Positions 4,802 through 63,423 of a stretch of 64,000 nucleotides of DNA are shown in pieces. Under the pieces are notes generated by a model. It saw only the letters and a program-made list of their open reading frames with translations. It searched no databases and was not told the DNA's origin. Origin of the DNA: a virus; the IMG/VR virus record IMGVR_UViG_3300035180_001563, positions 58,194 to 122,193 of that record; one strand, written 5' to 3'. Position 1 is the first letter of the stretch. Each line of letters opens with the position of its first letter. Made by a program: the position numbers and the translations under genes.

Positions 4802-6241
4802 TTATTCATACACGAATTTATACTTCCCACAATCCCACACCCTAATAACTCCATTATTGTTACAGTTTTGTTTCTCGCTTAGATTAGTATCAAAATGGTT
4901 GAGTCGTTTTTCTAAAAACTTCCTTCTGAAATTGAATTTATGTATTCTGTTAAGTCCATCTAGTGAATATGTGTAATCCGGTGGAATGACTTCAACAAAC
5001 TTCCACCCACAACGTTCATACATCTTTCCAACACTCCAACGAGCATCAGCGAAGCTGATTACTGGAATGTTAGAATTTTTGATGTTTTTAACAAAGTGTT
5101 TAAATAATTTGTCAAAACCTCCAATTATGGTATGAGTGGTTGCATACCTGTTAAGATAGTAACATTCATCCCTGGAAATAAAGGACATTACTGCAACAAT
5201 GACATTATCATAATGTAGTGCTAAATTTATAGAACCTGGACCATTGCCCTGGATGTGATTTTTTTCAAAAAATTCTCTCTTTTCATGTGTTGTTATCGTT
5301 TTGATGGAACATTTTCTAGCATATGTAGTTTTTTCACTCAAATTAAGTAAGTGTAATATTTTTCTTTTAACTTGGTCTTTTCTAAATAACCACTCATCCT
5401 CAAAAATGGTAAGAAGTTGTATATTTAGATTTTTACATAAATTGTGTTTATTTGAATGATACTGTTTATCTTTGTAAACATCAGAATGCCAATACACTCC
5501 ACAATATTCTATAGCTAAATTAAATGAGGGGATGTATATATCCAATTCTAATGGAGAAATAATAGATCTTGTATTTGTTTTAAACTGTATATTGTGTTCA
5601 ATTAAAAATTCAGCAATTTCTTTTTCTCCACTACTTCTTGAAAAATTCTTAATTTCAATATTGTGCCTTTTCATATATGTTGACACAATACTGACATCTA
5701 CTCCAACTATCGCGGCGATCTCTGTTAGTGTCCTTTGTTGAGTGTGATGTGTTAGATACAACCATGAAGCATCATTAAGTAAGTCAATTTGTTTTCCTTG
5801 TTGCCATGGATAGTTAACTCCATATCGGAGTGTGGACGTTTTACATTTTTTTTGTTTTATTATTTTTGTTTTAGATGGGTTAGAAACTCCCCAATTAACA
5901 AAACTTGTTTGTTCTTTTTTGAATTTTACCTCATCAGAATTGTTTGAACATTTTAAGGAACAATAATCATGATATGAATTTCGTTTTTTCCCATCATTTA
6001 TAAATCTAACTGTTTGTGTCTTACATTGTTTACACATTGTCTTGGAAGTGATATTGTTAATAACACAATATAACTGTTCTCGTATGTTAGTTAAATCATT
6101 TACTATATTACATGTAAGTTCGGTTAATACTTGTTTAATTTGAGGATTTTGATTTAATAAGATTTTATATTTTGGGTTAATTTTACCTACCTGAGTGATT
6201 ACATTAATTCGTGTTAATTCTTGTAATAATTTTACATACAT
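4802..6241 (-). CDS. Hef-like homing endonuclease with C-terminal GNAT/Mom-like domain
   Basis: Zn motif CKQC..YCSLKC, YGV repeats, HTH, ELDIYIP..AIEYCGVYWHS nuclease, then ARKC/NHIQG/SFADARWS/RVWDCG. Confidence 0.85.
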   Translation of the reverse strand: MYVKLLQELTRINVITQVGKINPKYKILLNQNPQIKQVLTELTCNIVNDLTNIREQLYCVINNITSKTMCKQCKTQTVRFINDGKKRNSYHDYCSLKCSNNSDEVKFKKEQTSFVNWGVSNPSKTKIIKQKKCKTSTLRYGVNYPWQQGKQIDLLNDASWLYLTHHTQQRTLTEIAAIVGVDVSIVSTYMKRHNIEIKNFSRSSGEKEIAEFLIEHNIQFKTNTRSIISPLELDIYIPSFNLAIEYCGVYWHSDVYKDKQYHSNKHNLCKNLNIQLLTIFEDEWLFRKDQVKRKILHLLNLSEKTTYARKCSIKTITTHEKREFFEKNHIQGNGPGSINLALHYDNVIVAVMSFISRDECYYLNRYATTHTIIGGFDKLFKHFVKNIKNSNIPVISFADARWSVGKMYERCGWKFVEVIPPDYTYSLDGLNRIHKFNFRRKFLEKRLNHFDTNLSEKQNCNNNGVIRVWDCGKYKFVYE

Positions 6242-6294
6242 AAGTTCTCCGTATTTTAACAGAGGTATTTATGATGATCGTATTAATTGAAAAT

Positions 6295-6319
6295 AAAAAG
6301 GGGTCCGAAGACCCCTTTT
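6295..6319 (-). terminator. Terminator after the tail sheath gene
   Basis: aaaaggggtc-cgaa-gacccctttt (UUCG loop on the minus strand). Confidence 0.85.
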
Positions 6320-6341
6320 GATAATATCACGAACTGTAACA

Positions 6342-8627
6342 TTAACTCACATTAGTAAACAATGAAGCTCCCGACGGACGAATCACGATTGGAATATAAA
6401 TGAATTCAATCGATTTCTCAGGTTGAACAGCAATATCAATATACAATTCATTGTTATCAATCACATCAGGTGTGTTATTAGATGTGTCACAAATTGTCGC
6501 GAAGTCGTATAAACCACGCTTGACCATGATTTTGTGTAAGAAACCATCAACCATAGCTTTCACGTTGCCTCGTGTAATTGAATCATTTGGTTCAAATAAG
6601 AACGGAACAGTACTCTTGCGTAACTGTCTCCTGATATACTTCATTAAACGAGCCACGTTAACACGGTCTAACGCACTAGCAGCGCTTTGTGAAGTTTTCT
6701 GACCAAAGATAATAATTCCTCTTCCAGGTAAATTTGGAACTGGATTTATGTTTGTGAAGTTTTTGTACAGATTGTCACGTTGACCTTGGTTTAGGTTTGT
6801 TGGAACAAACGTTGTGGCAGTTCCAAGGGTGCCTGTAACATACCCAACCTGTTCGATACCAGTCACAACACCACGTGTTATTCCTGCTGGAGCAAACCAA
6901 ACTTCAGATACACTATCACTATAAGCATAAGTTTTAAGAGCTGTTCCAGACATAGCACAGTAAACCTTAGCACCATCTAAATTGGTACCTAAACAGTGTG
7001 GGTAGTAATACGAAGTGTCATTGCTGTGTTGTCTGGTACTTGTTGTAGAATCTGCCCATAATGATACAACATCTTCAGGACTCATGTTCATTGGAGTGTC
7101 TCCAATAACGAATGCTTCTTCATGTATAGCAAGCGACAGAGAAATCATTTCATCCACGACTTCATGATAGCCAGGACACAAGATCAAATTGTATTCATAC
7201 ACATCTGATAGGAAGTCAGCATTTGGGTTATTAATTGCAGCTGCTAATGCCTGTACAATTGCAACTCTACGTGCAGCATCATTCGATCCAAGAGCAGTAG
7301 CATTTAAAAACTCAGCTGTAAACTTAAACATATCTCCTGCTGACTGAAGAATAGTTGCAACTTCAGAAGGTTGAATAACCATATTATTTGTGTTTGTAGT
7401 GTATGTAACAACAAATGTGTTAGTAGTGAAGCCAGGTCTTAATGGAACATTAACTGTAGAAACTGACAATGTATCACCAGTAGTATATCCTGTTCCATAA
7501 TCTGCAGATGTAAACTCAACAGATATCACAGTTCCATTAATAACCGTTAAATCTGCGACAGCGCCATGACCTGTTCCTGTCAGTGTTGTTAAAGGAACAT
7601 TAGGATAATAACCATCGACGAAGCCAGCCCCGCCGTTTGTTAGATCTATTAAATTACCGCTATATATCCAATTCTGTACAAAAGTATTTAATCCAACATA
7701 CCCATCAGTAGCTGGCAAAGAATAACCATTTGTGTAAACACATAAACCACTACCAGTAAATCCACCAGCACTTGAACATGTAAAGTTAGATTGATCATTT
7801 TGAAATTTACTTTCTAAATTTCTGAAAGAATACATCTTATACACAGGAGCTAGTGCAGCAGCTGCGTCAGAAAGATATTCACTGGATGTAACAGCAGTCT
7901 TGTAGTTTAGAACATTTGCAACGGTAGTAGTAAACCCAGTTCCTGTCGGAATAGATGGTGCTGTTAATACGTCACCAGTTGTATAACCAGTTCCACCAGT
8001 AACCAAAGCTATTTGAGTTACACCACCTCCTGCTGTTGTAATATTTGCAACTGCCCCAACACCAGTTCCACCAACTAGAGGAACATTAGAATAATGGCTA
8101 CTTGCATAACCGGTTCCAGGTGTAGTTGCTGATAATGCACTAACTACTCCAACACTTGTTGGTACCAATTGATTTGCTGTATTATATTCTTGAATTCTTG
8201 TTGCTGTTAACTGCTCAAGAGTAACACCTGCAGCTTGAATAGCCTTATCCCACATATTGATAATATCAGCTTGATTGTCATTTAGATTCACATCTGCTCT
8301 GACTGTATATGCAAGATTAGCAACTCCCAAGAATTGGTTAAGAGCAAATACACCGTACTCATTACGAGTGTCTCCATGTAGTGCATTTCCTTGAGAATCT
8401 GTTAAAAATTTTGGAATACCATAAAGTGAACTACTTTGTGATAAAGATGTGACTGCCCGAACAACGTTGTTTTCATATGTTCCGGCTGCAGGCGTTACAC
8501 CATCAGGTTGTGTCTTCTGATCCGCAGTTGCAAGAAATATTAATGGAACAGTAGGAGCCGTATTTGGAATGAAAAACGATTGATCAGTAATACTTACTGA
8601 AACTCCTGGGGAAACTAAAATAGCCAT
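6342..8627 (-). CDS. gp18: Tail sheath protein with inserted beta-rich domains
   Basis: N-terminal LVSPGV, WFAPAGITRG, GQKT...SALDRVNVARL, FEPND, NNTPDVID, IEFIYIP. Confidence 0.95.
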   Translation of the reverse strand: MAILVSPGVSVSITDQSFFIPNTAPTVPLIFLATADQKTQPDGVTPAAGTYENNVVRAVTSLSQSSSLYGIPKFLTDSQGNALHGDTRNEYGVFALNQFLGVANLAYTVRADVNLNDNQADIINMWDKAIQAAGVTLEQLTATRIQEYNTANQLVPTSVGVVSALSATTPGTGYASSHYSNVPLVGGTGVGAVANITTAGGGVTQIALVTGGTGYTTGDVLTAPSIPTGTGFTTTVANVLNYKTAVTSSEYLSDAAAALAPVYKMYSFRNLESKFQNDQSNFTCSSAGGFTGSGLCVYTNGYSLPATDGYVGLNTFVQNWIYSGNLIDLTNGGAGFVDGYYPNVPLTTLTGTGHGAVADLTVINGTVISVEFTSADYGTGYTTGDTLSVSTVNVPLRPGFTTNTFVVTYTTNTNNMVIQPSEVATILQSAGDMFKFTAEFLNATALGSNDAARRVAIVQALAAAINNPNADFLSDVYEYNLILCPGYHEVVDEMISLSLAIHEEAFVIGDTPMNMSPEDVVSLWADSTTSTRQHSNDTSYYYPHCLGTNLDGAKVYCAMSGTALKTYAYSDSVSEVWFAPAGITRGVVTGIEQVGYVTGTLGTATTFVPTNLNQGQRDNLYKNFTNINPVPNLPGRGIIIFGQKTSQSAASALDRVNVARLMKYIRRQLRKSTVPFLFEPNDSITRGNVKAMVDGFLHKIMVKRGLYDFATICDTSNNTPDVIDNNELYIDIAVQPEKSIEFIYIPIVIRPSGASLFTNVS

Positions 8628-8800
8628 AATGGATCTCCTTAATTAAAGCATTTGTTAACTGTAATTTTTTGTATAGTTTGTGTGCAATACGGGACTACAA
8701 TTATTTCAAATTGTATTTATGAAAACACCCACATATTTTGGTTTTTATACAAATATTTCTCATTAACTGTGGAGATAACCATGTGTATTAATTAGATATT

Positions 8801-9562
8801 TTAATTCACATCAACAACATCGGCAGATGATAATAAGTCGTAATTTATATTCTGATCATTCATCTGTTGTACAATATCTGCAGAAGATACATCCAAGCTA
8901 CTAACTGCACCAATACGAGCGTATATCTTCTTAATGAGTTCATTTTTGAGTTCTGAAGGTCCAGAAATCCAAATAGGCATCTCAAAATTTATAGTAGTTA
9001 CAATCATTCTACGATCAGTCCCAATTGGATAATTTTCTTCATATTGAATATTCCGTAACACTATTTTAGTTATTTTAGTCCAATCAAATGTAGAATCTGA
9101 TGTTTGTAATTGTAAAATTGGATCGAATAGTAAAAATAGTTGTTCTAATATCTGATGTTGAGTGTTCACATTACTTGTGTAAATTGATAACGACATCATG
9201 ATGTCATATGGGTTCGGCATTAATTGGTGGATTGTTTTTGCATCTTCGTGCAATAATCCACCTCTTGGGACGTATTTTACGACTCTAGTAACACCTACAC
9301 CCTTATGTCTATGCATTGCATAACCTATTTCATCAATATGACAACTCATCACTGGTAATCTCAATGGCTTGTTTTGTGTATTGTCACTTAGAATGGCTGA
9401 TACTACTCTATCACGACTACCGTATTGAATAGGAACGATTATATCCTTTTCTGTCCCATCTGCCCTCTTGCCAGTCTTAACCACCATACCACTAAAAACG
9501 TTCATAAATTGAACTATGTAATTTGCAATCTGGTGATCAAAATAATATGTATCAATTGTCAT
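8801..9562 (-). CDS. gp15: Tail sheath stabilizer/terminator (gp15-like)
   Basis: YYFDHQI, VPIQYG, LPVMS, PNPYDI, QILEQL..FDP. Confidence 0.85.
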   Translation of the reverse strand: MTIDTYYFDHQIANYIVQFMNVFSGMVVKTGKRADGTEKDIIVPIQYGSRDRVVSAILSDNTQNKPLRLPVMSCHIDEIGYAMHRHKGVGVTRVVKYVPRGGLLHEDAKTIHQLMPNPYDIMMSLSIYTSNVNTQHQILEQLFLLFDPILQLQTSDSTFDWTKITKIVLRNIQYEENYPIGTDRRMIVTTINFEMPIWISGPSELKNELIKKIYARIGAVSSLDVSSADIVQQMNDQNINYDLLSSADVVDVN

Positions 9563-9624
9563 ATGTTAACCTTACTGTTTTTGATATTTATATGTTCATT
9601 TAACCACCATTCATTGAATGGTGG

Positions 9625-11196
9625 TTACTTAGTAATATCTTCACCAGGGATTCTATTTGGACTATGTAACAAATCTTGTAATAGAGGTTTTTGACGGTTG
9701 TAATAGGAACGAGTATCTTCCTCTAAGAAAATCCAACGAACTTTAACAGCACTATACTGATATAACCTTATCAAAATATTATAAGCTGGATCATACGTGA
9801 GTCGGTGATAATCCCCATCCTTAGGATTCGTAGGAAATGACATCCCCTCAGTATAAGGTAGTCCATTTGGTGGCATACCATCATCAATATAAATTTTTGG
9901 TTGATCTCCACCATCTTGGTTAAATCTTGATAAATCTACACCATTAGCTTTTGCATTGTCAATTTCAGCTTGATTAAACTGACGAACATTAGCAGTATCT
10001 TCTCCTAACTCAGGGACTGCTGTTTCAGCAGTGGCTGAAGCTCTTATATTTGCCACAAACGCATCAGCTTGGAAAGGTAGACCTTCAACATTAGTGAAAC
10101 CATTTAGATTAGAAGAAGGATTAAGATCTCCAATGATATCCATCGTTTCTTGACTTGCTAACATTGGTAAAGTTCCTACTCGCTGGATTGATGGTTGCCA
10201 TCCAGGTGTATACCCATTTGAAGACCAGCCAACATCTGTTACTTCCAAATATTTTTTAATCAATTGCATTTTGGTATTAAATTGAGCCTCACTAGGAACC
10301 TCTATGATGTCTCCAACCACAACAGGTCTTCCAAGTGCTGCAACAGCAGTACTAATCGCAATTTGGAATGTTATGTTCTGACTCAAACTCATGTCAATAC
10401 CAAAACGAGACAAGTTGGTCAAATGATCTTGTATATCATAAAATCCTTTAATTTGAACACTCGTTGTTGAGTAGGCCCGATCTCTATTTTCAAGAAATCC
10501 CATCTCATCTTGAACATTGCTTATATCTGTAGCAGTATAATCAATCAACTCTAAACGTTTAACTATCCAAAAATCCAATGACCCACCATTGAAGTTTATA
10601 GGTCGAAGTCTCCAATATCTTGATGCAGTTGATTGCTTAAATGACACTAATTCAACATCTGGTGAATCAGGTAAATTTATTATTGCAACCCCAAACCATG
10701 TTTGATTATTATCAGATCTTTCTATTCGAGCACGGGTAATACGATTTTTACTTTCACACCCCTGCTGAATGCGAATTGTTGTGATGTGATGTCTAACAGC
10801 GGTTTCGATTGAATACCGAAGTCGACCGTTATCTAACCGGATTGGACCAAAATCATACCCTATATAACTGGATAAAGTTACCAAATCTCCTCTTTGAGTT
10901 GATCTCCATTCATTGTTATTTTTGTTGAACACATTATTTGCTGAATAATCTGAATACTCACCACTGGAAATAGGGACACCAGATCCTGTCAAATCTATTA
11001 AACTTCCCTGCTCATGTACACCCATTAATTTAAATATATTGAGAGGAGCAGATGCAATATTGATAGCTTCTGCCATTAAACTTTGAATATAACAATTAGC
11101 TGGATCAGTACTTAAGTTATATGGAGAACACACAGTTTCACTTGAAGCTGTATTGTTACAATCTGTTAGGTTTCCAACTTGTCCACAATTACTCAT
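9625..11196 (-). CDS. Neck/head-closure protein (gp14-like) with inserted F5/8C (discoidin-like) domain
   Basis: FLENRDRAY, LSRFGI, GRPVVVGDIIE neck motifs; insert with WRS..YIGYDFG..IERSDNNQTW..SRYWRL. Confidence 0.7.
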   Translation of the reverse strand: MSNCGQVGNLTDCNNTASSETVCSPYNLSTDPANCYIQSLMAEAINIASAPLNIFKLMGVHEQGSLIDLTGSGVPISSGEYSDYSANNVFNKNNNEWRSTQRGDLVTLSSYIGYDFGPIRLDNGRLRYSIETAVRHHITTIRIQQGCESKNRITRARIERSDNNQTWFGVAIINLPDSPDVELVSFKQSTASRYWRLRPINFNGGSLDFWIVKRLELIDYTATDISNVQDEMGFLENRDRAYSTTSVQIKGFYDIQDHLTNLSRFGIDMSLSQNITFQIAISTAVAALGRPVVVGDIIEVPSEAQFNTKMQLIKKYLEVTDVGWSSNGYTPGWQPSIQRVGTLPMLASQETMDIIGDLNPSSNLNGFTNVEGLPFQADAFVANIRASATAETAVPELGEDTANVRQFNQAEIDNAKANGVDLSRFNQDGGDQPKIYIDDGMPPNGLPYTEGMSFPTNPKDGDYHRLTYDPAYNILIRLYQYSAVKVRWIFLEEDTRSYYNRQKPLLQDLLHSPNRIPGEDITK

Positions 11197-12304: not shown

Positions 12305-12333
12305 CTTCTGGGTTTAGCATATTTATACATATA

Positions 12334-15787: not shown

Positions 15788-17983
15788 TTATAATTTGGGG
15801 TTTTTAATTGAGAATTTTAACGTACCACAATCCCATACCCTATAAAAACCATGATTTGTCATGTTTTGGTATTCGGTTAAACTTGGGTCATAGTTAATAA
15901 GAGAATTTTTTAACATATCTTTTCTGTAATTCCATCTGTGTTTACGAACCCCATTAACGATATAAAAATAATCAGGTGGATTATCAACAACTAAGTTAAA
16001 TCCAAGTTGATAGTACATATTCCCTTTACTCCATCGCTTATCAGCATAACTATAAATCTCTGTCCACTCATGATTTCGTTTAAAATGCTCCAGTAATCTA
16101 GATGCAATTCCGGGGATTCGGTAACTAACTTCAGTGCAAAATCGAACCAATTCGAATGTGTTTGTTTGTTTGTTCTTGTGAACACCAATCCCAGTTCGTG
16201 GAACAGAAAATGTCATCACCGCCACCAACTCATCATTATAATATGCACCATAGGCAATCTGAGAATTGTCGTTTCCTTGAACGTGATTTTTATCCAGTAG
16301 TGGAGATTTTTCTTTGTTAGTTATAGGTACAATCTTACAATCTCTTGCGTGTATTCTTGGTATTACATTATTGTTTTGTGTGTAATGTGATAGTTTTCGA
16401 CGAATAAGATCCGGTCGTTGTTTTAATTCATCAGAAAACAACACAAATACTGGTTTGTGATGTCTCTGTGATTGTTTAATTGTACTCTTCCTTTCGTCTA
16501 TTGCCGGTGGAACATTAATATTAATTATAATTAAAACAATTTTTTCACTTTCTAATTCTATAATATTAGAGGTTTGTTGTACTAACGTATAATCAGATAC
16601 ATTAATATATTGGAGCACTTCAGCTGTAAAATTGTTAGTTATTAACTGATCAAAATCACTTTCCCATACAGAAACTACATTATATCCCAAATTAATTAGT
16701 TTTTGTTCTCTTAATATTGTATGTTGATACAAGTCGTTATATGATTTATTGAGATGCTGATTGTATTGAGTTGGATCGTATACTTTTGGATTTCCATGCC
16801 AATAATCTCCATAAAATTCATATATCGTGTTGGTCTTTGGATTAAAACCGTCCACGCGGTATCGTGTTCCTGGAACTCTAAATTCTCCGTACTGTGTTGC
16901 ATGGTTAAGCTTGCAATTGTCACGCAATTCTATATACTTCAACCATACAAGCGATTTTTTTGAAAATTTGTTGTTCCTAGAGCACTGGGGACATCCATAT
17001 CCTTGGATTAAATTATATGGCCTGGGTTTCCATCTATGTTGACACACATTACACTTAACATCTATAGGTATGTGTGTTTGTTGATATTGTCCTAATACTT
17101 GAATTGTTGGTGCTACTGTTAATAATTTTTGTATAAACGTTTGTTGATTATATCTTGCATTTCCATAACAATGTGGACAATAATGTCCATTCATTAACCG
17201 TTCATACGTAGTATCCCATATGTGATTATTTTCACACTGAACTTCAACAGACTCTCGTCTACCGAGTTGATCCCCATGTTGACTACACACTGTCAGTTGT
17301 GGCCATTTTTCTTTTATATCTAATAGTGCTTGTCTAAACCCTCGACGTACAATTCCAGCACAGTGTGGACAACCTATATTTTTGTTAAGTATGTCTCCAG
17401 GTCTTGCTTTCCATCTATGATTATTTTCACACACAAAAACCAGCTTTGACCCACTACCTTCGTACGTTTGTCCTGAATCTAAGTAAATCATACTATCCAA
17501 ACATCCCGAATTGCGAATGTTCAGTTTCTCAATAAATTCATCGTGAGTATACAAATGTAAATGGATGTTATTAATTCGCTTGCATTCGGGACATCCAGAA
17601 CCTTGTATTATTGTTTTTGGTAAAGTTTTCCATTCATGATTGCACTCAACACACCTAAAAATAGATTTCTTGGTCATTCCATTAAATCCACTAACATACT
17701 CAACTTTGGGATATACAAGATTTCGTTTATCCAATCTGAGTAAAAATTGTTCAACTGATATTGTGTTCTTGGTAGATGTATGTTTAATACTACAAATAGG
17801 ACAACCGTGACCTTGTTTTATTCTAATAAAGGGTGCGTTCCAACTATGATTATTTGCACATTTCCATGTATATTTGTAATGAGTTCCTTGATATTGTTGA
17901 GCTGAGGGATCCAAATACAAACCATGTTTCTCAACCTCTTTAACTTCTACGTCAAATTCAGCTTGTGTTTTTTTGATTGACAA
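15788..17983 (-). CDS. Chimeric homing endonuclease: Zn-ribbon repeats, EDxHD-type nuclease, GNAT/Mom-like domain
   Basis: Five C..H.W....GCP.C-type repeats; RVDGF..IYEFYGDYWHGNP; ARDC/NHVQG/ELVRF/SYADKRWS/RVWDCG. Confidence 0.85.
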   Translation of the reverse strand: MSIKKTQAEFDVEVKEVEKHGLYLDPSAQQYQGTHYKYTWKCANNHSWNAPFIRIKQGHGCPICSIKHTSTKNTISVEQFLLRLDKRNLVYPKVEYVSGFNGMTKKSIFRCVECNHEWKTLPKTIIQGSGCPECKRINNIHLHLYTHDEFIEKLNIRNSGCLDSMIYLDSGQTYEGSGSKLVFVCENNHRWKARPGDILNKNIGCPHCAGIVRRGFRQALLDIKEKWPQLTVCSQHGDQLGRRESVEVQCENNHIWDTTYERLMNGHYCPHCYGNARYNQQTFIQKLLTVAPTIQVLGQYQQTHIPIDVKCNVCQHRWKPRPYNLIQGYGCPQCSRNNKFSKKSLVWLKYIELRDNCKLNHATQYGEFRVPGTRYRVDGFNPKTNTIYEFYGDYWHGNPKVYDPTQYNQHLNKSYNDLYQHTILREQKLINLGYNVVSVWESDFDQLITNNFTAEVLQYINVSDYTLVQQTSNIIELESEKIVLIIININVPPAIDERKSTIKQSQRHHKPVFVLFSDELKQRPDLIRRKLSHYTQNNNVIPRIHARDCKIVPITNKEKSPLLDKNHVQGNDNSQIAYGAYYNDELVAVMTFSVPRTGIGVHKNKQTNTFELVRFCTEVSYRIPGIASRLLEHFKRNHEWTEIYSYADKRWSKGNMYYQLGFNLVVDNPPDYFYIVNGVRKHRWNYRKDMLKNSLINYDPSLTEYQNMTNHGFYRVWDCGTLKFSIKNPKL

Positions 17984-18078
17984 ATCTAGTATCCTTGATA
18001 ATAAAGTACTATAAATTATATCTATTTATATCTAAAGTAACAACCTTTATATTTCCTCCTTTATATCCAACAACAGAT

Positions 18079-18110
18079 AAAAAAATCCCCCATTAAATGG
18101 GGGATTTTTT
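18079..18110 (-). terminator. Terminator after the major capsid gene
   Basis: aaaaaatccccca-ttaaa-tgggggatttttt. Confidence 0.85.
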
Positions 18111-18122
18111 GTGCTTATTAAA

Positions 18123-24355: not shown

Positions 24356-24477
24356 TATATGACTCCACGTTCTATGTATTTAGAGAAAGAATGTTTTAGG
24401 TAATTTAAGCGTGTATGAGAAAGTTGCTTCCCAGTACTAAACGCTGTATAAATACATTATATTATTTAGGAACGTAT

Positions 24478-26037
24478 ATGCACGACGAGTTGAAAGAAGC
24501 GTTTGAATCTGGTACTACCATACGAAATAAGACTCCATTATATAAACTGCTGTCTGATAATACCCAACACTTACCTAGTGATTATTTACCTAGACAAAAA
24601 TTGTGGCACTTATATTTCAATACCACAGAAAATCCGGGATGTAAAATATGTGGAAAATCGATTCAGTGGGAGTCGGCAGCAAAAACAGCTGATCAGAAGT
24701 ATCGAACATACTGCTCACGTAAATGTCAATGGTCTGATCCAGAAATTAAGGATAAGAAATACCAAACTGAACTACAACGATATGGTGCAGGACGACCTAC
24801 TGTAGTAGACAAGACTAAAGTAACTAATAACATAAAATATGGCTCTGATTACGCTATCCAACAAGACGAGTATAAGCAAAAACAATCAAATACTGTATTA
24901 TCCAAATATGGAGTGCTTAACATTACTCAATACAAACCTGCACTGAAAAAACGAGATCAAACTAATCTTTCATTGTTCGGTGTGAGATCTCATGCACAAC
25001 AACACTTACCTGATGATGTAGTTATGAAATTGGGTGATTACGACTGGATGAATACTCAACATACAATCAATAAAAAATCAGTAATTGAAATTGCGCAAGA
25101 GTTGAATATTAACTATGAGATTGTATCAAGACATTTAAAATTTCACGATATTTCAATACAACATTACCCTTCATCGTCTTCATACGAAAATCAAATATAT
25201 GATTTTTTGTGTACAATATTAGATTCTATAGATATACAAAGAAATAATAAATCAATACTCAATCCAAAACATATTGATTTTTACATTGAAAAATACAATT
25301 TAGCAATTGAATTTAATGGAATATATTGGCACAGTGAACAAGTTAATCCAGATCGTAGATATCATTTAGACAAAACAAATAAAGCATTAGCACAGAATAT
25401 TGAACTAATTCAAATATATGAATCTGAGTGGATACTTAAACAAGAACTTGTAAAGAGTATTTTACGAAGTAAATTGAAGCAAACTACCAATACCATTTTC
25501 GCAAGAAAATGTGACATTCGTGAGGTCGATAAACAACAAGCAAAACGGTTTTTGGATGAAAATCATATACAAGGAAATACATATAGTTCTGTTAATATAG
25601 CATTATTTTATCAAAATAAAATGGTAGAACTTATCACGTTTGGAACACCTAGATTTTCTAAAAAATATCAATATGAATTGGTAAGATTGTGTTCATTACA
25701 AAATCATTCCATTGTTGGAGGAGTTTCGAAAATATTTAAATATTTCGTTAAAAAGTATAATCCCAACTCAGTGATTTCATATAATGACAAACGGTGGGGA
25801 ACTGGTGCTGTCTATTCAAATTTAGGTTTTAAATTTTCTCATGCATCATCCCCAAACTATTGGTATTTCAAAAGTGGAGATTTAACACTACACTCAAGAG
25901 TCAAATTCCAGAAACATAAATTGCAGTCAATTCTTAATGTGTATGATTCTTCCCTGACTGAGTGGGAAAATATGATTGTAAATGGTTATAATAGGATATG
26001 GGACTGTGGAAACAATATATGGGAATGGTATCCATGA
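24478..26037 (+). CDS. Hef-like homing endonuclease with C-terminal GNAT/Mom-like domain
   Basis: CKICG..YCSRKC, KYG repeats, IDFYIE..AIEFNGIYWHS, ARKC/NHIQG/SYNDKRWG/RIWDCG; start set to the ATG downstream of TATAAATA. Confidence 0.85.
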   Translation: MHDELKEAFESGTTIRNKTPLYKLLSDNTQHLPSDYLPRQKLWHLYFNTTENPGCKICGKSIQWESAAKTADQKYRTYCSRKCQWSDPEIKDKKYQTELQRYGAGRPTVVDKTKVTNNIKYGSDYAIQQDEYKQKQSNTVLSKYGVLNITQYKPALKKRDQTNLSLFGVRSHAQQHLPDDVVMKLGDYDWMNTQHTINKKSVIEIAQELNINYEIVSRHLKFHDISIQHYPSSSSYENQIYDFLCTILDSIDIQRNNKSILNPKHIDFYIEKYNLAIEFNGIYWHSEQVNPDRRYHLDKTNKALAQNIELIQIYESEWILKQELVKSILRSKLKQTTNTIFARKCDIREVDKQQAKRFLDENHIQGNTYSSVNIALFYQNKMVELITFGTPRFSKKYQYELVRLCSLQNHSIVGGVSKIFKYFVKKYNPNSVISYNDKRWGTGAVYSNLGFKFSHASSPNYWYFKSGDLTLHSRVKFQKHKLQSILNVYDSSLTEWENMIVNGYNRIWDCGNNIWEWYP

Positions 26038-40366: not shown

Positions 40367-40399
40367 GCTTTGTGAGTTCCTTATAGTTATAGCTTTACA

Positions 40400-40428
40400 A
40401 GTATACAATAGTTTCTGTAATGAGACAA
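40400..40428 (-). promoter_or_regulatory. Sigma70-like promoter for the gp55-like gene
   Basis: TTGTCT-N17-TATACT, back-to-back with AATAAATA (40431-40438) on the plus strand. Confidence 0.65.
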
Positions 40429-40465
40429 CCAATAAATACATTAGATGTGATAAGAGAAAACATAT

Positions 40466-56390: not shown

Positions 56391-56412
56391 AAAACCGCCT
56401 TCGGGCGGTTTT
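56391..56412. terminator. Bidirectional terminator between convergent genes
   Basis: aaaaccgcc-ttcg-ggcggtttt. Confidence 0.85.
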
Positions 56413-58105
56413 ATTTTTTCCATATATCAAATCTTATAGTACCACAATCCCATAACTTATGGTATCCTCGTTCTTTCATAATTTCAAATTCTGTTTTGTT
56501 TGGATCAAACCCCAGGCTTACTAAATTTGATTTTTTAAAATTGTATCTGTACAATCTAGCAACTTTTTGAGTTTGTATATACCAATAATTTGGTTTACTG
56601 TATGATGTTAGTGTAAAACCAAGCTGTTCATATAAGTTGCCTGTAGACCACCGTCTATCCGCATAACTATATATGTGCGTCCAATTATGATTTTTCTTGA
56701 AGTGTGTTAATAATTTTCCGGCGGCCCCTCGGACTACATATTTTGAATTGGTTGCAAATCTATTTAACTCCCAACTTCCATCTCCATTTATTTTATTTTT
56801 TCCGCCTTTTAGGTGGGATGGAGCTGAAAATGTCATAACTGCAATCAATTCTTCATCAAAAAACAAACCTAAAGATACTTTTGCTTTGTCTGCTCCTTGT
56901 ATATGAAACTGATTCAAAAACGAATTCTTTTGATATGCTTCTATGCTTCTTATATTACACTGTCTCGCATTGATTCTCAAAGAATTAGAGTGCTCTAATA
57001 TGTGTGATATCTTTGACTTTACTGTCTCTGGAGAGTTAATCCATTCATCTTCAAATATTGTTAATAATTTGTAACCACGCTCTCTACACTTTTCTAATTT
57101 TTTAACATGATAATATCTATCATCTTTAACAGCATCCGAGTGCCAATATAACCCACAATATTCGATTGCTATCTTGTGGTTGGGAATAACGATATCAAGT
57201 TCTTGTGGATGTATTATTTGTCTGTCACATATGATAATATCTTCTCCTACAATAGAACGAACAAATTGTTCAACTTGTTGTTCACCTGCTGACCTGTATT
57301 TTGTGGGAAAACTAACACTTTGTGATTTAATTAATTTTTCAAATGTATCCTTACCTATACCAAATGTTGAACATATTTCTGTTAAAGACATATTATTAAC
57401 CATATTTGTTAAAATATCTTTAACATCATCATCATTTTTCAAGTCATTAAATTCAGCAGATAATCGGATGTCAGTCCCTTCTGTTTTAATCCCCCACATC
57501 TTTACATGTTTGCGAAGATATCCAGTACTAACTCCAACCAATTTCCCTATATGGGTAAGCGGGATTCGTTTGTTGTAATATAAATCTTCAACAACCTGTT
57601 TCGTTAAAGGATATTGAGCATTTTTTTGTGACAGTAAACTCTTTCCAGTTGAGCTGTTGTGTAGTGTAATATCATGTAATTTACATAAAGACACAACCAT
57701 ACTTTGACCACAATCTAAAGCTTTCATGATATTAGATTGAGTGATGTGTTCATTCACTAAATCAACAAAACTTGCTTTATTAATAGCGATTAAATAATTT
57801 TTATATGACAGTTCTTTAAATTTAACTGGTTTTCGTATTTTATGTTTGTTCAACACTGTAACGATGGGTTGAGTTGACGTTCCAACCCTAGACGCAATTT
57901 CGGTTATACTTAAATCTTGTGTATACCATTGTATTACTTGTTGTTCATCTATCGAGCACTTGCGTGGTTTTGCAGGTTTCCATACATTGTTTTTCTGTAA
58001 CAACCACCTTATCTTATCCACTGAACAGTCGTGTTCACGTGCAAGAATTTTTAGTTGTTTTCCGTTTTGGTAATCTTCAATGATTTGATGTGTTTGTGAT
58101 TCCAT
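56411..58105 (-). CDS. Hef-like homing endonuclease (multi-HTH N-terminus) with GNAT/Mom-like domain
   Basis: Several HTH repeats, ELDIVIP..AIEYCGLYWHS, ARQC/FHIQG/WELNRF/SYADRRWS/KLWDCG. Confidence 0.85.
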   Translation of the reverse strand: MESQTHQIIEDYQNGKQLKILAREHDCSVDKIRWLLQKNNVWKPAKPRKCSIDEQQVIQWYTQDLSITEIASRVGTSTQPIVTVLNKHKIRKPVKFKELSYKNYLIAINKASFVDLVNEHITQSNIMKALDCGQSMVVSLCKLHDITLHNSSTGKSLLSQKNAQYPLTKQVVEDLYYNKRIPLTHIGKLVGVSTGYLRKHVKMWGIKTEGTDIRLSAEFNDLKNDDDVKDILTNMVNNMSLTEICSTFGIGKDTFEKLIKSQSVSFPTKYRSAGEQQVEQFVRSIVGEDIIICDRQIIHPQELDIVIPNHKIAIEYCGLYWHSDAVKDDRYYHVKKLEKCRERGYKLLTIFEDEWINSPETVKSKISHILEHSNSLRINARQCNIRSIEAYQKNSFLNQFHIQGADKAKVSLGLFFDEELIAVMTFSAPSHLKGGKNKINGDGSWELNRFATNSKYVVRGAAGKLLTHFKKNHNWTHIYSYADRRWSTGNLYEQLGFTLTSYSKPNYWYIQTQKVARLYRYNFKKSNLVSLGFDPNKTEFEIMKERGYHKLWDCGTIRFDIWKK

Positions 58106-58167
58106 GTAATATTTACTCCTGTGTAGTTTATTTATTTTTGTTCACACAGGAGTAAATATTACATGGA
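58101..58167 (-). promoter_or_regulatory. 24-bp perfect hairpin covering RBS and ATG, with a late promoter in the loop
   Basis: tccatgtaatatttactcctgtgt (58101-58124) and acacaggagtaaatattacatgga (58144-58167); AATAAATA at 58129-58136 on the minus strand. Confidence 0.85.
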
Positions 58168-58175
58168 TTTAAAGG

Positions 58176-59267
58176 TTATGCAGTGCTTCTGGCTACCTGA
58201 ATAATAAGGGTATATATAATAGTTAAGGTTCTATTCTGACTCTTGCGAACAGGACTGAATATCAAATGAGTTAAAAGTCGTTCTCCCTCTAAGTTGGAGT
58301 CTGTTGTATTATTTTGTAATCCAGCACCTTGCCCAGTAACAGCAGTTTCAACTGCTAAATATCCAACCAAAGAATTAAACATCCAGTTTGGTGGAGGATT
58401 TACTGTATCGACGACAACAGTGGAGGTTGAACCAACAGAATTGGAAACGAATCGAAGAGCACCATAAGTATTCACAGTACCAGAAGTATTTGAAATTTGT
58501 GCTATACAACCCGACATTGTTCCTGGAACATTAAGTATTTCTATCAAGTCACTGTACAACAATTCACCACCCACACCTGAACCAGTACCTGTATTAAAAG
58601 TTATAACTTGCTTTGTTCCACTATCTACAGTAATACTGAAAGTATATACGGTGTTTTGAGTAAGTCCAGTTACGCTTGTATCAAACTTAGTCCCCACATT
58701 AATATCCTGATAACCTGCAGTATTAATTAACGAAGACCCAGAAGTAAATAAACCAATTTCATCAAACACGAACGCATCTTGAGGATTTTCTGAAGGTGGT
58801 AATTGGTCAGTGATTGTTTGACCTGATGGTTCAAATGGATTAAGTGTACATGTAATAACAACTGAAGATGTTAACCCATTATCTTGACTAACTACTGAAT
58901 TCTTTGATGGGTCATTTGTAGGATCAGAGCCCGGTCCAGTTCCATCTAATAAACTTATTTCATCAACAACTTCAGAGTATGTTTCGTTATATAATTGGGA
59001 TCTCCATCCCGCAGTATCAGGAGCTTGTCCATCGTTTGGTGTTTTATAGGCAATTTGTCCTGCGGCATTTATAATAGTTCCACCATTTCCAAAAGCCATT
59101 CTATATACGTATGAATTATTTTCGTGAGCCAAGGCTCTGGAGATAATTCGAGATAAATTTTGAGGATGTACAGCGTTAGTTTCATCTACATGAACTTGAC
59201 CCAAGTCATCAATAATTTTAGCGTGTCCCAATACACTCACTGGAAGGGAATATTCATTTATTTTCAT
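58176..59267 (-). CDS. Virion structural (baseplate/tail) protein
   Basis: NAVH, MAFGNGGT, FVFDEIGL, LLTHLIFSPVRKSQNR..I.Y; TATAAATA upstream. Confidence 0.65.
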   Translation of the reverse strand: MKINEYSLPVSVLGHAKIIDDLGQVHVDETNAVHPQNLSRIISRALAHENNSYVYRMAFGNGGTIINAAGQIAYKTPNDGQAPDTAGWRSQLYNETYSEVVDEISLLDGTGPGSDPTNDPSKNSVVSQDNGLTSSVVITCTLNPFEPSGQTITDQLPPSENPQDAFVFDEIGLFTSGSSLINTAGYQDINVGTKFDTSVTGLTQNTVYTFSITVDSGTKQVITFNTGTGSGVGGELLYSDLIEILNVPGTMSGCIAQISNTSGTVNTYGALRFVSNSVGSTSTVVVDTVNPPPNWMFNSLVGYLAVETAVTGQGAGLQNNTTDSNLEGERLLTHLIFSPVRKSQNRTLTIIYTLIIQVARSTA

Positions 59268-59368: not shown

Positions 59369-59393
59369 TGCTTATACCTCTGCACCAATAATT

Positions 59394-59996: not shown

Positions 59997-60016
59997 ATGT
60001 TTTCTCCTACTTGTTA

Positions 60017-60229: not shown

Positions 60230-60240
60230 TCATAATCTCC

Positions 60241-60468
60241 TTAGACGATCTTGGCACGGCCAGTCTGTGCTGTAGAAAAAACAACGTTAACATTGTTTGA
60301 ATCTACAACTTGAACTTCAAGCGGAATGACCTTAGTCCATACAGACGACACATTCAAATAACAATCGACAACAGGAGTGATTGTTTTCAAGTTGTGGTTG
60401 ATTGCCCAAGTGGTAGCAGGTGTTGTTTGCTCAAAGTAAAACGTGTTTAATATAGTTTTAAGTCCCAT
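60241..60468 (-). CDS. Small virion protein, one W.I.HNL module
   Basis: TWAINHNL...PVVDCY...IP...DSNNVNVVFSTAQTGRAKI. Confidence 0.7.
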   Translation of the reverse strand: MGLKTILNTFYFEQTTPATTWAINHNLKTITPVVDCYLNVSSVWTKVIPLEVQVVDSNNVNVVFSTAQTGRAKIV

Positions 60469-60480
60469 TTTATTTCTCCA

Positions 60481-61113: not shown

Positions 61114-61129
61114 CGTACTATCCTTTACA

Positions 61130-61540
61130 TTAAGCTACTGGGTACACTGTAGTATCTCCAAACATCACAACAACACGCCCAGTTTCAGGAGAACCAAAAC
61201 TAATACTAACTGTATTATTATCAGTAGGAGTAATTTCTCCAGGGATCAACATATTACCGGTTGTGTCATACACTTGAACAAGCGGACTACCTGTATTTAA
61301 GTTATGAACAACGGTCCACGTTGCTGATGCTGTTTCTTGATCGTGAATTGCTGTATTGTTCATTGATGTTAAAGGAACCCATGCTGGTACATTTGAGACG
61401 ACCTCAACACAAATCCAAACACGTTTCCCAACATAGGCGATACGTCCTACTACTGGTGGATTTGGAAAAGTTAACTCTTCTTGCAAAGCCATTCTCTGCA
61501 TTTGATTGTTATTAAAGTCAAGGTCTCCATACGATTTCAT
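61130..61540 (-). CDS. Virion protein with one HNL module
   Basis: MKSYGDLD..KRVWICV; WTVVHNL..PLVQVYD. Confidence 0.7.
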   Translation of the reverse strand: MKSYGDLDFNNNQMQRMALQEELTFPNPPVVGRIAYVGKRVWICVEVVSNVPAWVPLTSMNNTAIHDQETASATWTVVHNLNTGSPLVQVYDTTGNMLIPGEITPTDNNTVSISFGSPETGRVVVMFGDTTVYPVA

Positions 61541-61602
61541 TTGAACAGACTCCTAAATTGATATGATGTAATTTCATGCATGTATTTATACTTTTTGGTG
61601 TC

Positions 61603-63423
61603 TTATTCATTATAATATATCCAAACAGTATTTCCGCAATCCCATATTCGATCATAACCATTGTTGACCATGTTATTCCATTCTGTTAAATTGGCATCAA
61701 ATGTGGTTAATAGTTCAGGTAATTTGTGTTTTTGAAACGTGTTTCTTGAAAAAAGTTGCGTTGAAGCATTTTTCTTGAAATACTTATAGTTGGGTGCACT
61801 CCAATTTTCTTGTTTAAATCCTAATCTGTCATACACATTACCGATTCCGTATCTCATATCACAGTACGATAGCAGCGTTTTTGGATTATATGTTCTAATA
61901 AAATAATAAAATAATCTACTCGCCCCACCAACAACCGTATATCCTGCTTTTGAACAAAAACGAAGTAATTCCCAATCAACGTGTTTGTTAAATCGTGGTT
62001 TTCCAAATGTCATAAGTGACACCAATTCATCATTATAAAATAATCCAACCTTAACAGACGAGTTTACGTGCCCTTGAATATGATATTGGTTAACAAATGT
62101 AGTAGCTTGTGTTGAGTCAACATTTCTAATTTCACACTTACGTGCAAATAGTTTTTTATTCTTATCTAATAAGGTTTGTATTCTTGATTTTACGATATCT
62201 TTTTTATTGATCCATTCAATATCATACACGTGAATTAATCGTATTCCACGGTTTAGGGATTCTTTGGTTTTCGTTAAATGATAACATTTAGATTTTCCAT
62301 TAAGTTCTGAATGCCAAAATATTCCGTTTACTTCAATTCCAATGTTCAATTCAGGTAATAAGATGTCAATTTCGTGTGGATTGATTGCTGTTCTATCATT
62401 TTCTACAATAAGCCCAGAATAAAGAGATTTTATAAATTCAACAATTTCAATGTGATGAGAAGATGTGTAATAATATTTTATTGGGATATCATATAGTTTA
62501 AATCGAGTTTCAACTGTATGTGGAGAAACTGATAAGTTCTTTGCAATTAAACAAAGAGGAAGTTTGAGGGTATGGTGTTGTTCAGTGAGCCATTCTCTAT
62601 TCTTTAATATTTGGAGTGTATTTGAGTCTATATGACGATGGTTTGTACTCTCTACTCCATATCGAGATAAGTTTGTTTGGATACGTTTTTCCAAATATCC
62701 AGGTAATTCACTTACATGATGAACACCATATTTTTTAAACACTAACCCCTTTATTTCTTTTTGAAACTGTGAAGATTTGAAAGGATTTTCTACTCCATAC
62801 CGCTCTACATTTTTTGTTTTGTTGCTTTCTATTATATCAGGTTTTTGGATTATATGTTCTACTCCATAACGACTCAAATTTGTTTGTTTCTTTTTTTCTT
62901 GTGATGTAGTTATTTGGGACGGATTTTCTACTCCATAACGAGTTTTCATTGTCTCTTTTTGTTTTATTTTAATTTCTTCACTACAAGAAGCATTTTTGTT
63001 TCCGTATTTCAATAAGTTAGTTGACTGCATTTTTTCCAGAATCATTGGGGATTGTGCTGGGTGTTCTACACCATAATGTTCTTTTGTAGTTTTCTTTTTC
63101 TTTTCAATGATGATAGAATCTGTTTGCATGCAACGAAGACAGCAATATTCTCGGTATGGTTTATCTTCTTTTCCTAAAAACTCAACCGGATTTGAGCAGT
63201 TAGAATTTGAACACGTGTGTTGATGTGTTATGTTGTGTGTAATACAAAAAATTCGTTCTGTCCAGGATGCACCATCTCGAAGAAACACCGTGTGTTGTTT
63301 GATTATATTTTTATCTTCTATATCTGTTTGATTCAACGAATTTGATTTATTACTATTTACTCGTCCTCTCTTATCAAACCACTTGTGTCGTTTTAATAAT
63401 GCCAAAATCTCCAAATTGTTCAT
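61603..63423 (-). CDS. Hef-like homing endonuclease with seven roughly 22-aa YG(V/N) repeats and a GNAT/Mom-like domain
   Basis: xYGVE(H/N) repeats, EIDILLP..GIEVNGIFWHS, ARKC/YHIQG/WELLRF/SYCDMRYG/RIWDCG. Confidence 0.85.
   Translation of the reverse strand: MNNLEILALLKRHKWFDKRGRVNSNKSNSLNQTDIEDKNIIKQHTVFLRDGASWTERIFCITHNITHQHTCSNSNCSNPVEFLGKEDKPYREYCCLRCMQTDSIIIEKKKKTTKEHYGVEHPAQSPMILEKMQSTNLLKYGNKNASCSEEIKIKQKETMKTRYGVENPSQITTSQEKKKQTNLSRYGVEHIIQKPDIIESNKTKNVERYGVENPFKSSQFQKEIKGLVFKKYGVHHVSELPGYLEKRIQTNLSRYGVESTNHRHIDSNTLQILKNREWLTEQHHTLKLPLCLIAKNLSVSPHTVETRFKLYDIPIKYYYTSSHHIEIVEFIKSLYSGLIVENDRTAINPHEIDILLPELNIGIEVNGIFWHSELNGKSKCYHLTKTKESLNRGIRLIHVYDIEWINKKDIVKSRIQTLLDKNKKLFARKCEIRNVDSTQATTFVNQYHIQGHVNSSVKVGLFYNDELVSLMTFGKPRFNKHVDWELLRFCSKAGYTVVGGASRLFYYFIRTYNPKTLLSYCDMRYGIGNVYDRLGFKQENWSAPNYKYFKKNASTQLFSRNTFQKHKLPELLTTFDANLTEWNNMVNNGYDRIWDCGNTVWIYYNE

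What the first reader, a model, noticed from the sequence alone, without database searches (positions are those of the whole stretch)
4802..63423. Expanded family of endonuclease plus Mom-like GNAT fusions: candidate self-contained cut-and-modify mobile elements
Seen: five complete ORFs (4802, 15788, 24478, 56411, 61603) share a C-terminal domain of about 200 aa after the nuclease region, with motifs AR.C, (N/F/Y)H(I/V)QG, (E/Y)L.R, G....(L/I)..(H/Y)F, S(Y/F).D.R(W/Y)..G.(L/M/V)Y...G(F/W) and WDCG. The truncated ORF at 1-807 belongs to the same nuclease family. Their N-terminal DNA-binding parts differ (YGV repeats, HTH arrays, Zn ribbons). Known: the nuclease part resembles Hef-like/Vsr-fold phage homing endonucleases, and phage Mu Mom is a GNAT-fold enzyme that modifies adenine and protects DNA from restriction. 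Inferred from remembered Mom motifs (ELNR, SFAD, G.VY): this domain is Mom-like. Each gene could then modify its own target site for self-protection while cutting rival phage DNA, a one-gene restriction-modification-like homing unit. Alternatively the copies could together modify the genome against host defences.
Basis: partly seen in the sequence, partly recalled or inferred. Interest (0 to 1): 0.82.

Follow-up and report, generated by a model that had tools for sequence, protein, structure and literature searches.

The report
Hef-type homing endonucleases with Mom domain
A fragment of an uncultured jumbo phage carries ten diverged copies of a well-known selfish "homing" nuclease gene whose tail is a relative of phage Mu's DNA-modifying enzyme Mom; the design and the cut-and-protect idea are already in print, but what the Mom-like part does is still untested.

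Summary
The 122-kb viral contig holds ten full-length genes of this type, not five; six lie in or touch the window. Each has a variable N-terminal DNA-binding array and a Vsr-like EDxHD nuclease (I-Bth0305I type). A GNAT domain of about 190 aa follows the nuclease directly. Its closest solved structure by Foldseek is Mu Mom (8bv8). Mom's R111, D149, R151, H58 and Y159 equivalents are invariant in all ten copies; S124 is not.

The genes sit between or inside core phage genes. One shows a precise gene-sized presence/absence polymorphism against close relatives. Two complete related genomes have none. They are therefore mobile Hef-type homing endonuclease genes.

This is a huge known family: PHROG 3339/559, 10,981 representative clusters at E <= 1e-30, and 401 phage records with up to 11 copies per genome. 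Iyer et al. 2021 already described Mom-REase fusions in jumbo phages and the modify-and-cut logic. This scan has also flagged the same gene type on other DNA, with 109 notes in at least 89 genomes.

The Mom-like domain's activity remains untested.

The parts
1..849 (-). c5: N-terminal 283 aa of a Hef-type endonuclease gene. Its nuclease and Mom-like domains lie just outside the window (contig 57453-59051). It sits in the break of a split terminase large-subunit gene.
   Evidence: TerL N-half is window 767-1666 and TerL C-half is L012:2301-3512; they match phrog_36964 positions 437-631 and 626-880.
4802..6241 (-). c6: Hef-type endonuclease gene between the tail tube (4113-4721) and tail sheath (6342-8627) genes. 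Nuclease about 5336-5707, Mom-like domain 4805-5356. The S124-equivalent is Asp.
   Evidence: PHROG 3339 E 5e-104; flanks. The two-domain AF2 model has pLDDT 94.9 and pTM 0.88. Foldseek gives 8bv8 and 3r3p; VIA results.
15788..17983 (-). c7: variant architecture. Treble-clef/CapR zinc-finger array, a divergent Vsr-like core (aa 376-414), an insertion of about 90 aa, the last nuclease strand/helix (aa 503-537), then the Mom-like domain (15791-16378).
   Evidence: Pfam DUF4379 9.2e-29, CapR 7.8e-15 and Mom 25.6 bits; PHROG 559 2e-112.
15795..18121 (.). Window-specific insert of about 2.3 kb (c7 plus its 139-bp upstream spacer) between the major head protein stop and the 112-aa ORF. Relative L016 has about 75 nt here.
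   Evidence: blastn boundaries fall at window 18122 and 15794. Close relatives have a gap of 535-654 bp against 2,766 bp here.
24415..26037 (+). c8: Hef-type endonuclease gene on the opposite strand to its neighbours, between a Mom-less zinc-finger nuclease gene (23453-24355) and a tape-measure-like gene (26038-29262). Nuclease 25096-25485, Mom-like domain 25465-26034. The alternative start at 24478 is preceded by TATAAATA.
   Evidence: PHROG 3339 5.7e-125. Six-frame Pfam Mom 28.1 bits against a cut-off of 27.1..
56411..58105 (-). c9: Hef-type endonuclease gene with an HTH-array N-terminus. Nuclease 56987-57367, Mom-like domain 56414-57001. The S124-equivalent is Gly.
   Evidence: Pfam Mom 28.0 bits (cut-off 27.1) and HTH_23/HTH_28. 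AF2 pLDDT 85.9. Foldseek 8bv8 E 1.7e-8.
61603..63423 (-). c10: Hef-type endonuclease gene with DUF7487 ('YGV') repeats. Nuclease 62158-62538, Mom-like domain 61606-62169.
   Evidence: DUF7487 1.7e-30 and Mom 20.8 bits; PHROG 3339 2.3e-134.

Best explanation
These are ten old, diverged members of the Hef-type family of free-standing phage homing endonuclease genes.

Shown: each protein has a fast-evolving N-terminal DNA-binding array and a Vsr-like (EDxHD, I-Bth0305I-type) nuclease. A GNAT domain follows the nuclease with essentially no linker, and its closest characterised relative is Mu Mom. The genes sit between or inside core genes and are present or absent between related phages.

Inferred mechanism: the array docks the protein beside its insertion site in a co-infecting relative that lacks the gene. 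The nuclease cuts, and recombinational repair copies the gene in.

Inferred, about 50%: the Mom-like domain is a live transferase that acylates an adenine in the DNA held by the same protein. By analogy with Mom, the donor would be a charged tRNA. It would work for the element rather than for the phage.

Inferred, about 25%: the mark's specific purpose is to make the element's own allele resistant to its own nuclease.
For: Family: PHROG 3339 'homing endonuclease' matches full length at E 5e-104 to 2.3e-134 for four window copies; c7 matches PHROG 559 at 2e-112.

GNAT/Mom: 8bv8 is the top Foldseek hit for two copies. hhalign against 27 Mom homologues gives 84% probability, E 7.7e-6, over 91 columns. 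Mom H58, R111, D149, R151 and Y159 equivalents are kept in 10 of 10 copies. Across 152 domains from 147 representatives they are kept in 152, 152, 146, 143 and 151.

Rigid unit: the domain is C-terminal in 147 of 147 representatives, and a Hef-type nuclease lies directly upstream in 143 of 147 with a median gap of 2 aa. The two-domain model has pTM 0.88.

Mobility: 8 of 40 evaluable relatives carry such a gene between the major head protein and the adaptor. The five closest relatives have none, and the boundaries fall exactly on c7. Relative L011 has an extra copy where the window has a 174-bp gap. Copies per related record are 0, 0, 9, 1 and 6.

Domain importance: 9 of 14 genes at the same site share c7's last nuclease helix plus Mom-like domain at 53-66% identity, while the N-terminal parts share only 21-29%.
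Against: No biochemical data exist for this domain. Mom's essential S124 aligns to a variable column: S5, T1, G3, D1 in the ten copies, and S/T in 114 of 152 in the wider sample. Y59 is replaced by I/L/V.

The beta4-alpha3 loop is glycine-rich (G-G-x-S-K), more like CoA-using GNATs than like Mom, so the donor is open. Nuclease genes without the domain coexist on the contig, so the domain is not needed for every such nuclease. From memory only (Sandegren et al. 2005, not held): Hef cleaved its own phage's DNA in vitro.
Confidence: 0.5

Rival explanations
1. The Mom-like domain is a non-catalytic part of the endonuclease. It would be a DNA clamp, base-flipping reader or structural partner that positions or regulates the Vsr-like nuclease, retained from a Mom-like ancestor.
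For: There is no linker between the domains (median gap 2 aa), and the two-domain model is confidently rigid (pTM 0.88). The S124-equivalent, essential in Mom, is Gly or Asp in 4 of 10 copies. In the paper's AlphaFold3 model, Mom binds dsDNA and flips the adenine out (PMC13219725 section 13).
Against: Five Mom active-site positions are invariant in 10 of 10 copies and kept in 143-152 of 152 domains across representatives clustered at 50% identity. That is hard to explain for a mere scaffold.
Confidence: 0.2
2. The domain is an active transferase, but on a non-DNA substrate. For example, it might acylate a charged tRNA or a protein, as GNAT toxins and RimI-type enzymes do, helping the element or the phage in another way.
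For: GNATs closest by Z include RimI and N-terminal acetyltransferases. Mom itself binds tRNA. The glycine-rich loop resembles CoA-using GNATs.
Against: The domain is always fused, without a linker, to a DNA nuclease and DNA-binding arrays. The nearest characterised relative by Foldseek and by profile comparison acts on DNA.
Confidence: 0.12
3. Phage-level weapon and shield (the Iyer et al. 2021 reading and the first reader's alternative). The copies collectively momylate the phage genome against host restriction, and their nucleases attack host or superinfecting DNA, rather than driving homing.
For: Stated as a prediction in PMC7824862 section 3.4.7. There are ten copies with different DNA-binding arrays.
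Against: Two complete related genomes (363 and 350 kb) have none, and other related records have 1, 6 and 9. There is a gene-sized presence/absence polymorphism at a fixed site. The copies are 26-45% identical, and none is another's nearest neighbour in a 162-tip tree. One Mom suffices for Mu. All of this fits selfish elements better.
Confidence: 0.1

Closest known systems
Hef (phage U5) and 'Hef-like' free-standing homing endonucleases (PHROG 3339/559; F-LimIII, VII, VIII and X of Dickeya phage LIMEstone1; Campylobacter, Acinetobacter, Klebsiella and Vibrio phages)
   Same: Full-length profile matches. The C-terminal domain is found in 401 phage records annotated Hef, Hef-like or homing endonuclease. 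Members are free-standing next to core genes, e.g. F-LimVIII by the tail tube gene (PMC3296691 passages). Multi-copy genomes occur: 9-11 places in roughly 132-kb Campylobacter phages.
   Different: Only sequence divergence: at most about 50% identity in the domain to any phage record. Density here is high, at ten copies in 122 kb. c7 carries a zinc-finger array and an interrupted nuclease core.
I-Bth0305I, prototype of the EDxHD (Vsr-like) homing endonucleases (PDB 3r3p)
   Same: The nuclease fold and the catalytic Asp/His are shared. Both have N-terminal modular DNA binding. Taylor et al. 2011 include Hef-type enzymes in this family (PMC3239194 passages).
   Different: I-Bth0305I is intron-encoded and ends with the nuclease domain (266 aa), so it has no GNAT domain.
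Phage Mu Mom (PDB 8bv8; Pfam PF25680)
   Same: GNAT fold with an insertion between the last strands. ELNR(111), S(F/Y)AD(149)-x-R(151), G-x-x-Y(159) and H58 are conserved. It is the best Foldseek hit.
   Different: Mom is stand-alone. S124 and Y59 are not conserved here. The match sits at or below Pfam's cut-off for most copies. The family has its own invariant WDCG and A-R motifs. Donor and product are unknown.
Mom-REase fusions of group 2 jumbo phages (Iyer, Anantharaman, Krishnan, Burroughs, Aravind 2021, Viruses 13:63)
   Same: Same architecture and the same protect-self/cut-others idea (passages read).
   Different: That paper does not use the terms homing endonuclease, Hef or Vsr (0 occurrences each) and assumes an acyl-CoA donor. 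Its supplementary lists could not be seen.
Single-chain restriction-modification enzymes (Type IIG/IIC). Recalled, not tested here.
   Same: They work alike in principle: one polypeptide that both cuts and modifies DNA at sites set by its own DNA-recognition part.
   Different: Those use a SAM methyltransferase domain and defend a cell. Here the modifying domain is a GNAT and the unit is a mobile gene in a virus.

Membership tests
Hef-type / EDxHD (Vsr-like) homing endonucleases | Vsr-like nuclease domain with the catalytic Asp and His | tested here: met
Hef-type / EDxHD (Vsr-like) homing endonucleases | Modular N-terminal DNA-binding region | tested here: met
   DUF7487 repeats, HTH and DUF4379/CapR/DUF723 zinc fingers, differing between copies.
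Hef-type / EDxHD (Vsr-like) homing endonucleases | Free-standing, or within a split gene, beside conserved essential genes | tested here: met
   Tube|sheath, adaptor|major head protein, split TerL, helicase|UvsY, next to UvsX, and next to a DNA polymerase fragment.
Hef-type / EDxHD (Vsr-like) homing endonucleases | Gene-sized presence/absence between related genomes at a fixed site | tested here: met
   For c7: 8 of 40 evaluable relatives are occupied, the five closest are empty, and the boundaries lie at window 18122 and 15794. Not tested for the other nine, apart from one comparison with L011.
Hef-type / EDxHD (Vsr-like) homing endonucleases | Site-specific cleavage of the gene-less allele, and homing in mixed infection | not testable with these tools
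   Needs enzyme assays or phage crosses.
Mom family (Mu Mom, Pfam PF25680) | GNAT fold | tested here: met
Mom family (Mu Mom, Pfam PF25680) | Score at or above Pfam's gathering cut-off (27.1 bits) | tested here: inconclusive
   hmmscan: c9 28.0, c7 25.6, c10 20.8, and no hit at E <= 0.1 for the other 7. Six-frame: c9 29.9, c8 28.1, c10 17.7. Profile-profile against Mom homologues gives 84% probability.
Mom family (Mu Mom, Pfam PF25680) | Essential residues R111, D149 and R151 | tested here: met
   Invariant in 10 of 10 copies. Kept in 152, 146 and 143 of 152 representative domains. Residue roles come from PMC13219725 section 13.
Mom family (Mu Mom, Pfam PF25680) | Essential S124 at the start of helix alpha3 | tested here: inconclusive
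   The aligned column is S5, T1, G3, D1 in the ten copies and S/T in 114 of 152 representative domains. It is invariant in 27 of 27 Mom homologues.
Mom family (Mu Mom, Pfam PF25680) | H58, Y59 and Y159 (activity drastically reduced when mutated) | tested here: inconclusive
   The H and Y159 equivalents are invariant. Y59 is I, L or V in all ten copies. The H58 match rests on motif position, outside the hhalign-aligned block.
Mom family (Mu Mom, Pfam PF25680) | HTH-like insertion between the last beta-strands, essential in Mom | tested here: inconclusive
   The model has an insertion of about 45 residues with three helices at the same place. Alignments to 8bv8 are the longest, at 152 and 141 residues against 123-133 for other GNATs. 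No residue-level superposition was available.
Mom family (Mu Mom, Pfam PF25680) | Gly-tRNA(Gly)-dependent N6 modification of dA in dsDNA | not testable with these tools
   Biochemistry is needed.

The most novel reading that the evidence does not exclude
The Mom-like domain is a site-directed, charged-tRNA-dependent adenine N6-acyltransferase, steered by the endonuclease's own DNA-binding array. It would write an immunity mark on the element's own allele. Each gene would then be a single-polypeptide restriction-modification-like homing unit. That would explain how free-standing homing endonucleases, whose insertion does not destroy the target, avoid killing their carrier. It would also imply that more than 10,000 protein clusters encode an unrecognised class of sequence-targeted DNA hypermodification enzymes.
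Probability: 0.25. Interest if true: 0.75.

Novelty: new member of a known kind. Interest (0 to 1): 0.33.

Why it matters
As a discovery it is ordinary. The gene family, its multi-copy habit and the cut-and-protect idea are all on record, and this scan has met it many times.

It matters as a pointer to an open, now testable question. Since 2026 Mom's chemistry is known (glycine from Gly-tRNA onto adenine N6). Here a very large family of homing endonucleases carries a rigidly attached Mom relative with Mom's catalytic Arg/Asp/Arg/His/Tyr intact.

Two observations from this locus sharpen the question. First, among endonucleases occupying the same site in related phages, the Mom-like domain is kept at 53-66% identity while the DNA-binding part is almost unrecognisable. 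Second, the one essential Mom residue that varies is the serine at the cofactor-binding loop.

If the domain is active, it would be a natural sequence-targeted DNA-acylating enzyme. It would also offer a new answer to how free-standing homing endonucleases spare their own genome.

Tried and rejected
Recent in-genome duplication was rejected. The copies are 26-45% identical. In a FastTree of 162 domain rows (10 own plus 152 from 147 representatives; no row dropped; one representative, P0129, is c3 itself), no two own copies are nearest neighbours, no pure own clade exists, and their common ancestor is the whole tree.

'c7 has a second, dead Hef nuclease' was my first reading, and I revised it. 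Unfiltered hmmsearch shows one divergent Vsr-like core (aa 376-414), an insertion of about 90 aa, and then the last strand/helix (aa 503-537).

Megablast of 20 kb of the window against the phage collection found no match.

The PDB sequence search with the domain profile reached GCN5-type GNATs (E 0.002) but no Mom chain at E <= 10. hhalign against the single Mu Mom sequence was weak (probability 3%, E 0.014). Only a 27-member Mom alignment gave 84%.

A homodimer job for the Mom-like domain (complex prediction) returned 'no answer' (score 0.02). It is no evidence either way.

Co-substrate hints led nowhere: 0 tRNA genes in the window, and 15 on the contig, none of them Gly. A QueE-like gene lies next to c1, but no TGT/DpdA-type gene was found on the contig. 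The contig is 36% complete, so that is no conclusion.

TATAAATA occurs 12 times against 7.6 expected, and 10 of 100 shuffles reach 12, so it is not significant.

Literature. Searches for Mom + homing endonuclease + GNAT gave 4 irrelevant papers. Hef-like + acetyltransferase + phage gave 0. Hef + SegH + 'own DNA' gave 0. So I found no held paper that joins the Hef and Mom literatures in words. GenBank annotators do write 'putative nuclease/acetyltransferase protein'.

Sandegren et al. 2005 and Iyer et al. 2009 are not held. What I say of Hef cleaving its own DNA is recalled. Supplements are closed; those of PMC13219725 (the Mom homologue network) and PMC7824862 (lists of Mom-REase proteins) may bear on how far the fusions were already catalogued.

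Rows left out. L032 was omitted because it has the same coordinates as L031. L065 and L071 were omitted because their Mom-domain ORFs are not adjacent to the major head protein or are partial. In one search, 40 of 80 loci had no adaptor match downstream, mostly on short contigs, and were not evaluable. Among the 32 evaluable relatives without a Mom-domain gene at the site, gaps ranged from 514 to 5,420 bp, so other inserts also occur there.

Full report
WHAT IS THERE. The window is the last 64 kb of a 122,193-bp viral contig that CheckV rates 36% complete. GC content is about 35%. Their last 190 residues or so align with 20 invariant columns.

An HMM built from those five domains was run against 389 ORFs of at least 60 aa on the whole contig. 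It finds ten full-length members. The five outside the training set score E = 2.5e-69 to 1.9e-46. The 'truncated' ORF at 1-849 is the N-terminal part of one of them and has the domain beyond the window edge. I call the copies c1-c10.

THE THREE PARTS. (i) N-termini differ: DUF7487 repeats with a zinc ribbon, HTH arrays, or treble-clef/CapR/DUF723 zinc fingers.

(iii) The C-terminal domain folds confidently, with pLDDT 85.9 alone and 94.9 together with the nuclease. It is a GNAT.

HOW MOM-LIKE IS THE DOMAIN. By Foldseek, the top PDB hit for two different copies is Mu Mom S124A (8bv8), at E 1.7e-8 and 7.5e-7. The next GNATs score 8.5e-6 and 2.0e-5.

By sequence, Pfam's Mom model reaches its cut-off for one copy by hmmscan and for two in the six-frame search. 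Seven copies give no hit. hhalign against a 27-member Mom alignment gives 84% probability, E 7.7e-6, over 91 columns.

So this is a distinct subfamily whose nearest characterised relative is Mom. It is not a member of Pfam's Mom family as curated.

CATALYTIC RESIDUES. The 2026 structure paper (section 13 read) names R111, S124, D149 and R151 as essential. Mutating H58, Y59, W48, Y159 or W181 strongly reduces activity.

In the hhalign register, R111, D149, R151 and Y159 fall on columns invariant in all ten copies. H58 matches by motif. Across 152 domains from 147 representatives clustered at 50% identity, these five positions are kept in 152, 146, 143, 151 and 152. Y59 is I, L or V.

S124 sits at the start of helix alpha3, which fits both the 2020 paper's description and the model's helix. 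It aligns to a variable column: S5, T1, G3, D1 here, and S/T in 114 of 152 in the wider sample.

This pattern argues for a live enzyme whose donor-binding loop differs from Mom's. That loop is glycine-rich (G-G-x-S-K), as in CoA-using GNATs, so the donor is open.

ARCHITECTURE. The domain is C-terminal in 147 of 147 representatives. A Hef-type nuclease lies directly upstream in 143 of 147, with a median gap of 2 residues. The two-domain model has pTM 0.88. The nuclease and the GNAT therefore look like one rigid module.

c7 and four representatives have a divergent Vsr-like core interrupted by an insertion of about 90 residues. The junction into the GNAT is still the same.

MOBILITY. The copies lie in these positions:
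- between the tail tube and sheath genes (c6)
- between the adaptor and the major head protein (c7)
- in the break of a split terminase gene (c5)
- between a helicase and a UvsY-like gene (c3)
- beside a UvsX-like gene (c4)
- beside a DNA polymerase fragment (c2)
- beside a QueE-like gene (c1)

I examined 80 related loci found with the major head protein. In 40, both flanking genes were detectable. Eight of these carry a Mom-domain gene between them, and the five closest relatives (82-86% identity) have only 535-654 bp there.

Against L016, homology stops at the head-protein stop codon and resumes at c7's stop codon. About 75 nt there correspond to about 2.3 kb here.

In L011, a different family member sits after the sheath gene. 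An extra copy lies where the window has a 174-bp gap.

Copies in five related records are 0 and 0 (both complete, 363 and 350 kb), then 9, 1 and 6. The ten copies are 26-45% identical and are scattered over the family tree. These are old, independently maintained selfish genes, not a recent expansion and not a fixed phage function.

A DETAIL WORTH KEEPING. I examined 14 Mom-domain genes at the head-protein site in relatives. Nine share c7's last nuclease helix plus GNAT domain at 53-66% identity, which is about the divergence of the head protein itself. Their N-terminal parts match only at 21-29% over zinc-finger repeats. The GNAT is thus the best-kept part of these genes.

WHAT IS KNOWN. The family is very large: 19,998 representatives at E <= 0.001 and 10,981 at E <= 1e-30. 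PHROGs 3339 and 559 model the full architecture. The domain occurs in 401 phage records at 930 places. Campylobacter phages of about 132 kb carry 9-11 places, and some Acinetobacter phage records already call it 'nuclease/acetyltransferase'.

Iyer et al. [quoted passage not shown] They propose that momylation protects the phage while the nuclease attacks other DNA.

Earlier notes of this scan reached the same verdict on other genomes and listed six of these copies on this contig.

VERDICT. The open question is the activity of the Mom-like domain.

Noticed in passing
window 23453-24355(-), 54894-55862(+), 47804-48961(+), 11189-12304(-); also contig 40074-41009: A second set of zinc-finger (DUF4379/DUF723/CapR) nuclease genes matches the N-terminal two-thirds of PHROG 559, as c7 does, but lacks the Mom-like domain. 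Two of them sit right next to Mom-bearing copies (c8, c9). They are natural 'domain-less' comparators in the same genome.
   Followed up: partly
window 767-1666(-) and L012:2301-3512(-), flanking c5: The terminase large subunit is encoded in two halves (phrog_36964 positions 437-631 and 626-880), with c5 between them and overlapping both. Earlier first-reader notes propose a split intein. I confirmed only the two TerL halves.
   Followed up: partly
L013:1058-1933(-) (contig about 4557-5432), next to c1: A QueE-like radical SAM gene (phrog_2076, E 4e-49) hints at a 7-deazaguanine pathway. No TGT/DpdA-type gene was found on this 36%-complete contig.
   Followed up: partly
contig 8173-13268 (outside the window): An array of 15 tRNA genes (Ala, Thr x5, His x2, Met, Trp, Phe, Glu, Pro x3). 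There is no tRNA-Gly.
   Followed up: no
proteins P0128, P0130, P0132, P0154, P0161: Five of 147 representatives carry two Mom-like domains in one 829-1,064-aa protein. They could be tandem fused endonuclease genes or read-through gene calls.
   Followed up: no
L039:7495-9189 and 9206-11029: Two Mom-domain endonuclease genes lie in tandem directly after the major head protein gene of one relative. They belong to different lineages (53% and 27% identity to c7).
   Followed up: no
window 868-875(-), 18023-18030(-), 24447-24454(+): A T4-late-promoter-like TATAAATA lies within about 70 nt upstream of c5, c7 and the 24478 start of c8, i.e. 3 of the 6 copies in or touching the window. The window-wide count (12) is not above chance.
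   Followed up: partly
L029 and L030 (gap 5,420 bp), L053 (4,015 bp), L019 (3,788 bp): Several relatives have large inserts between the major head protein and the adaptor that contain no Mom-domain gene. Other cargo evidently uses the same site.
   Followed up: no
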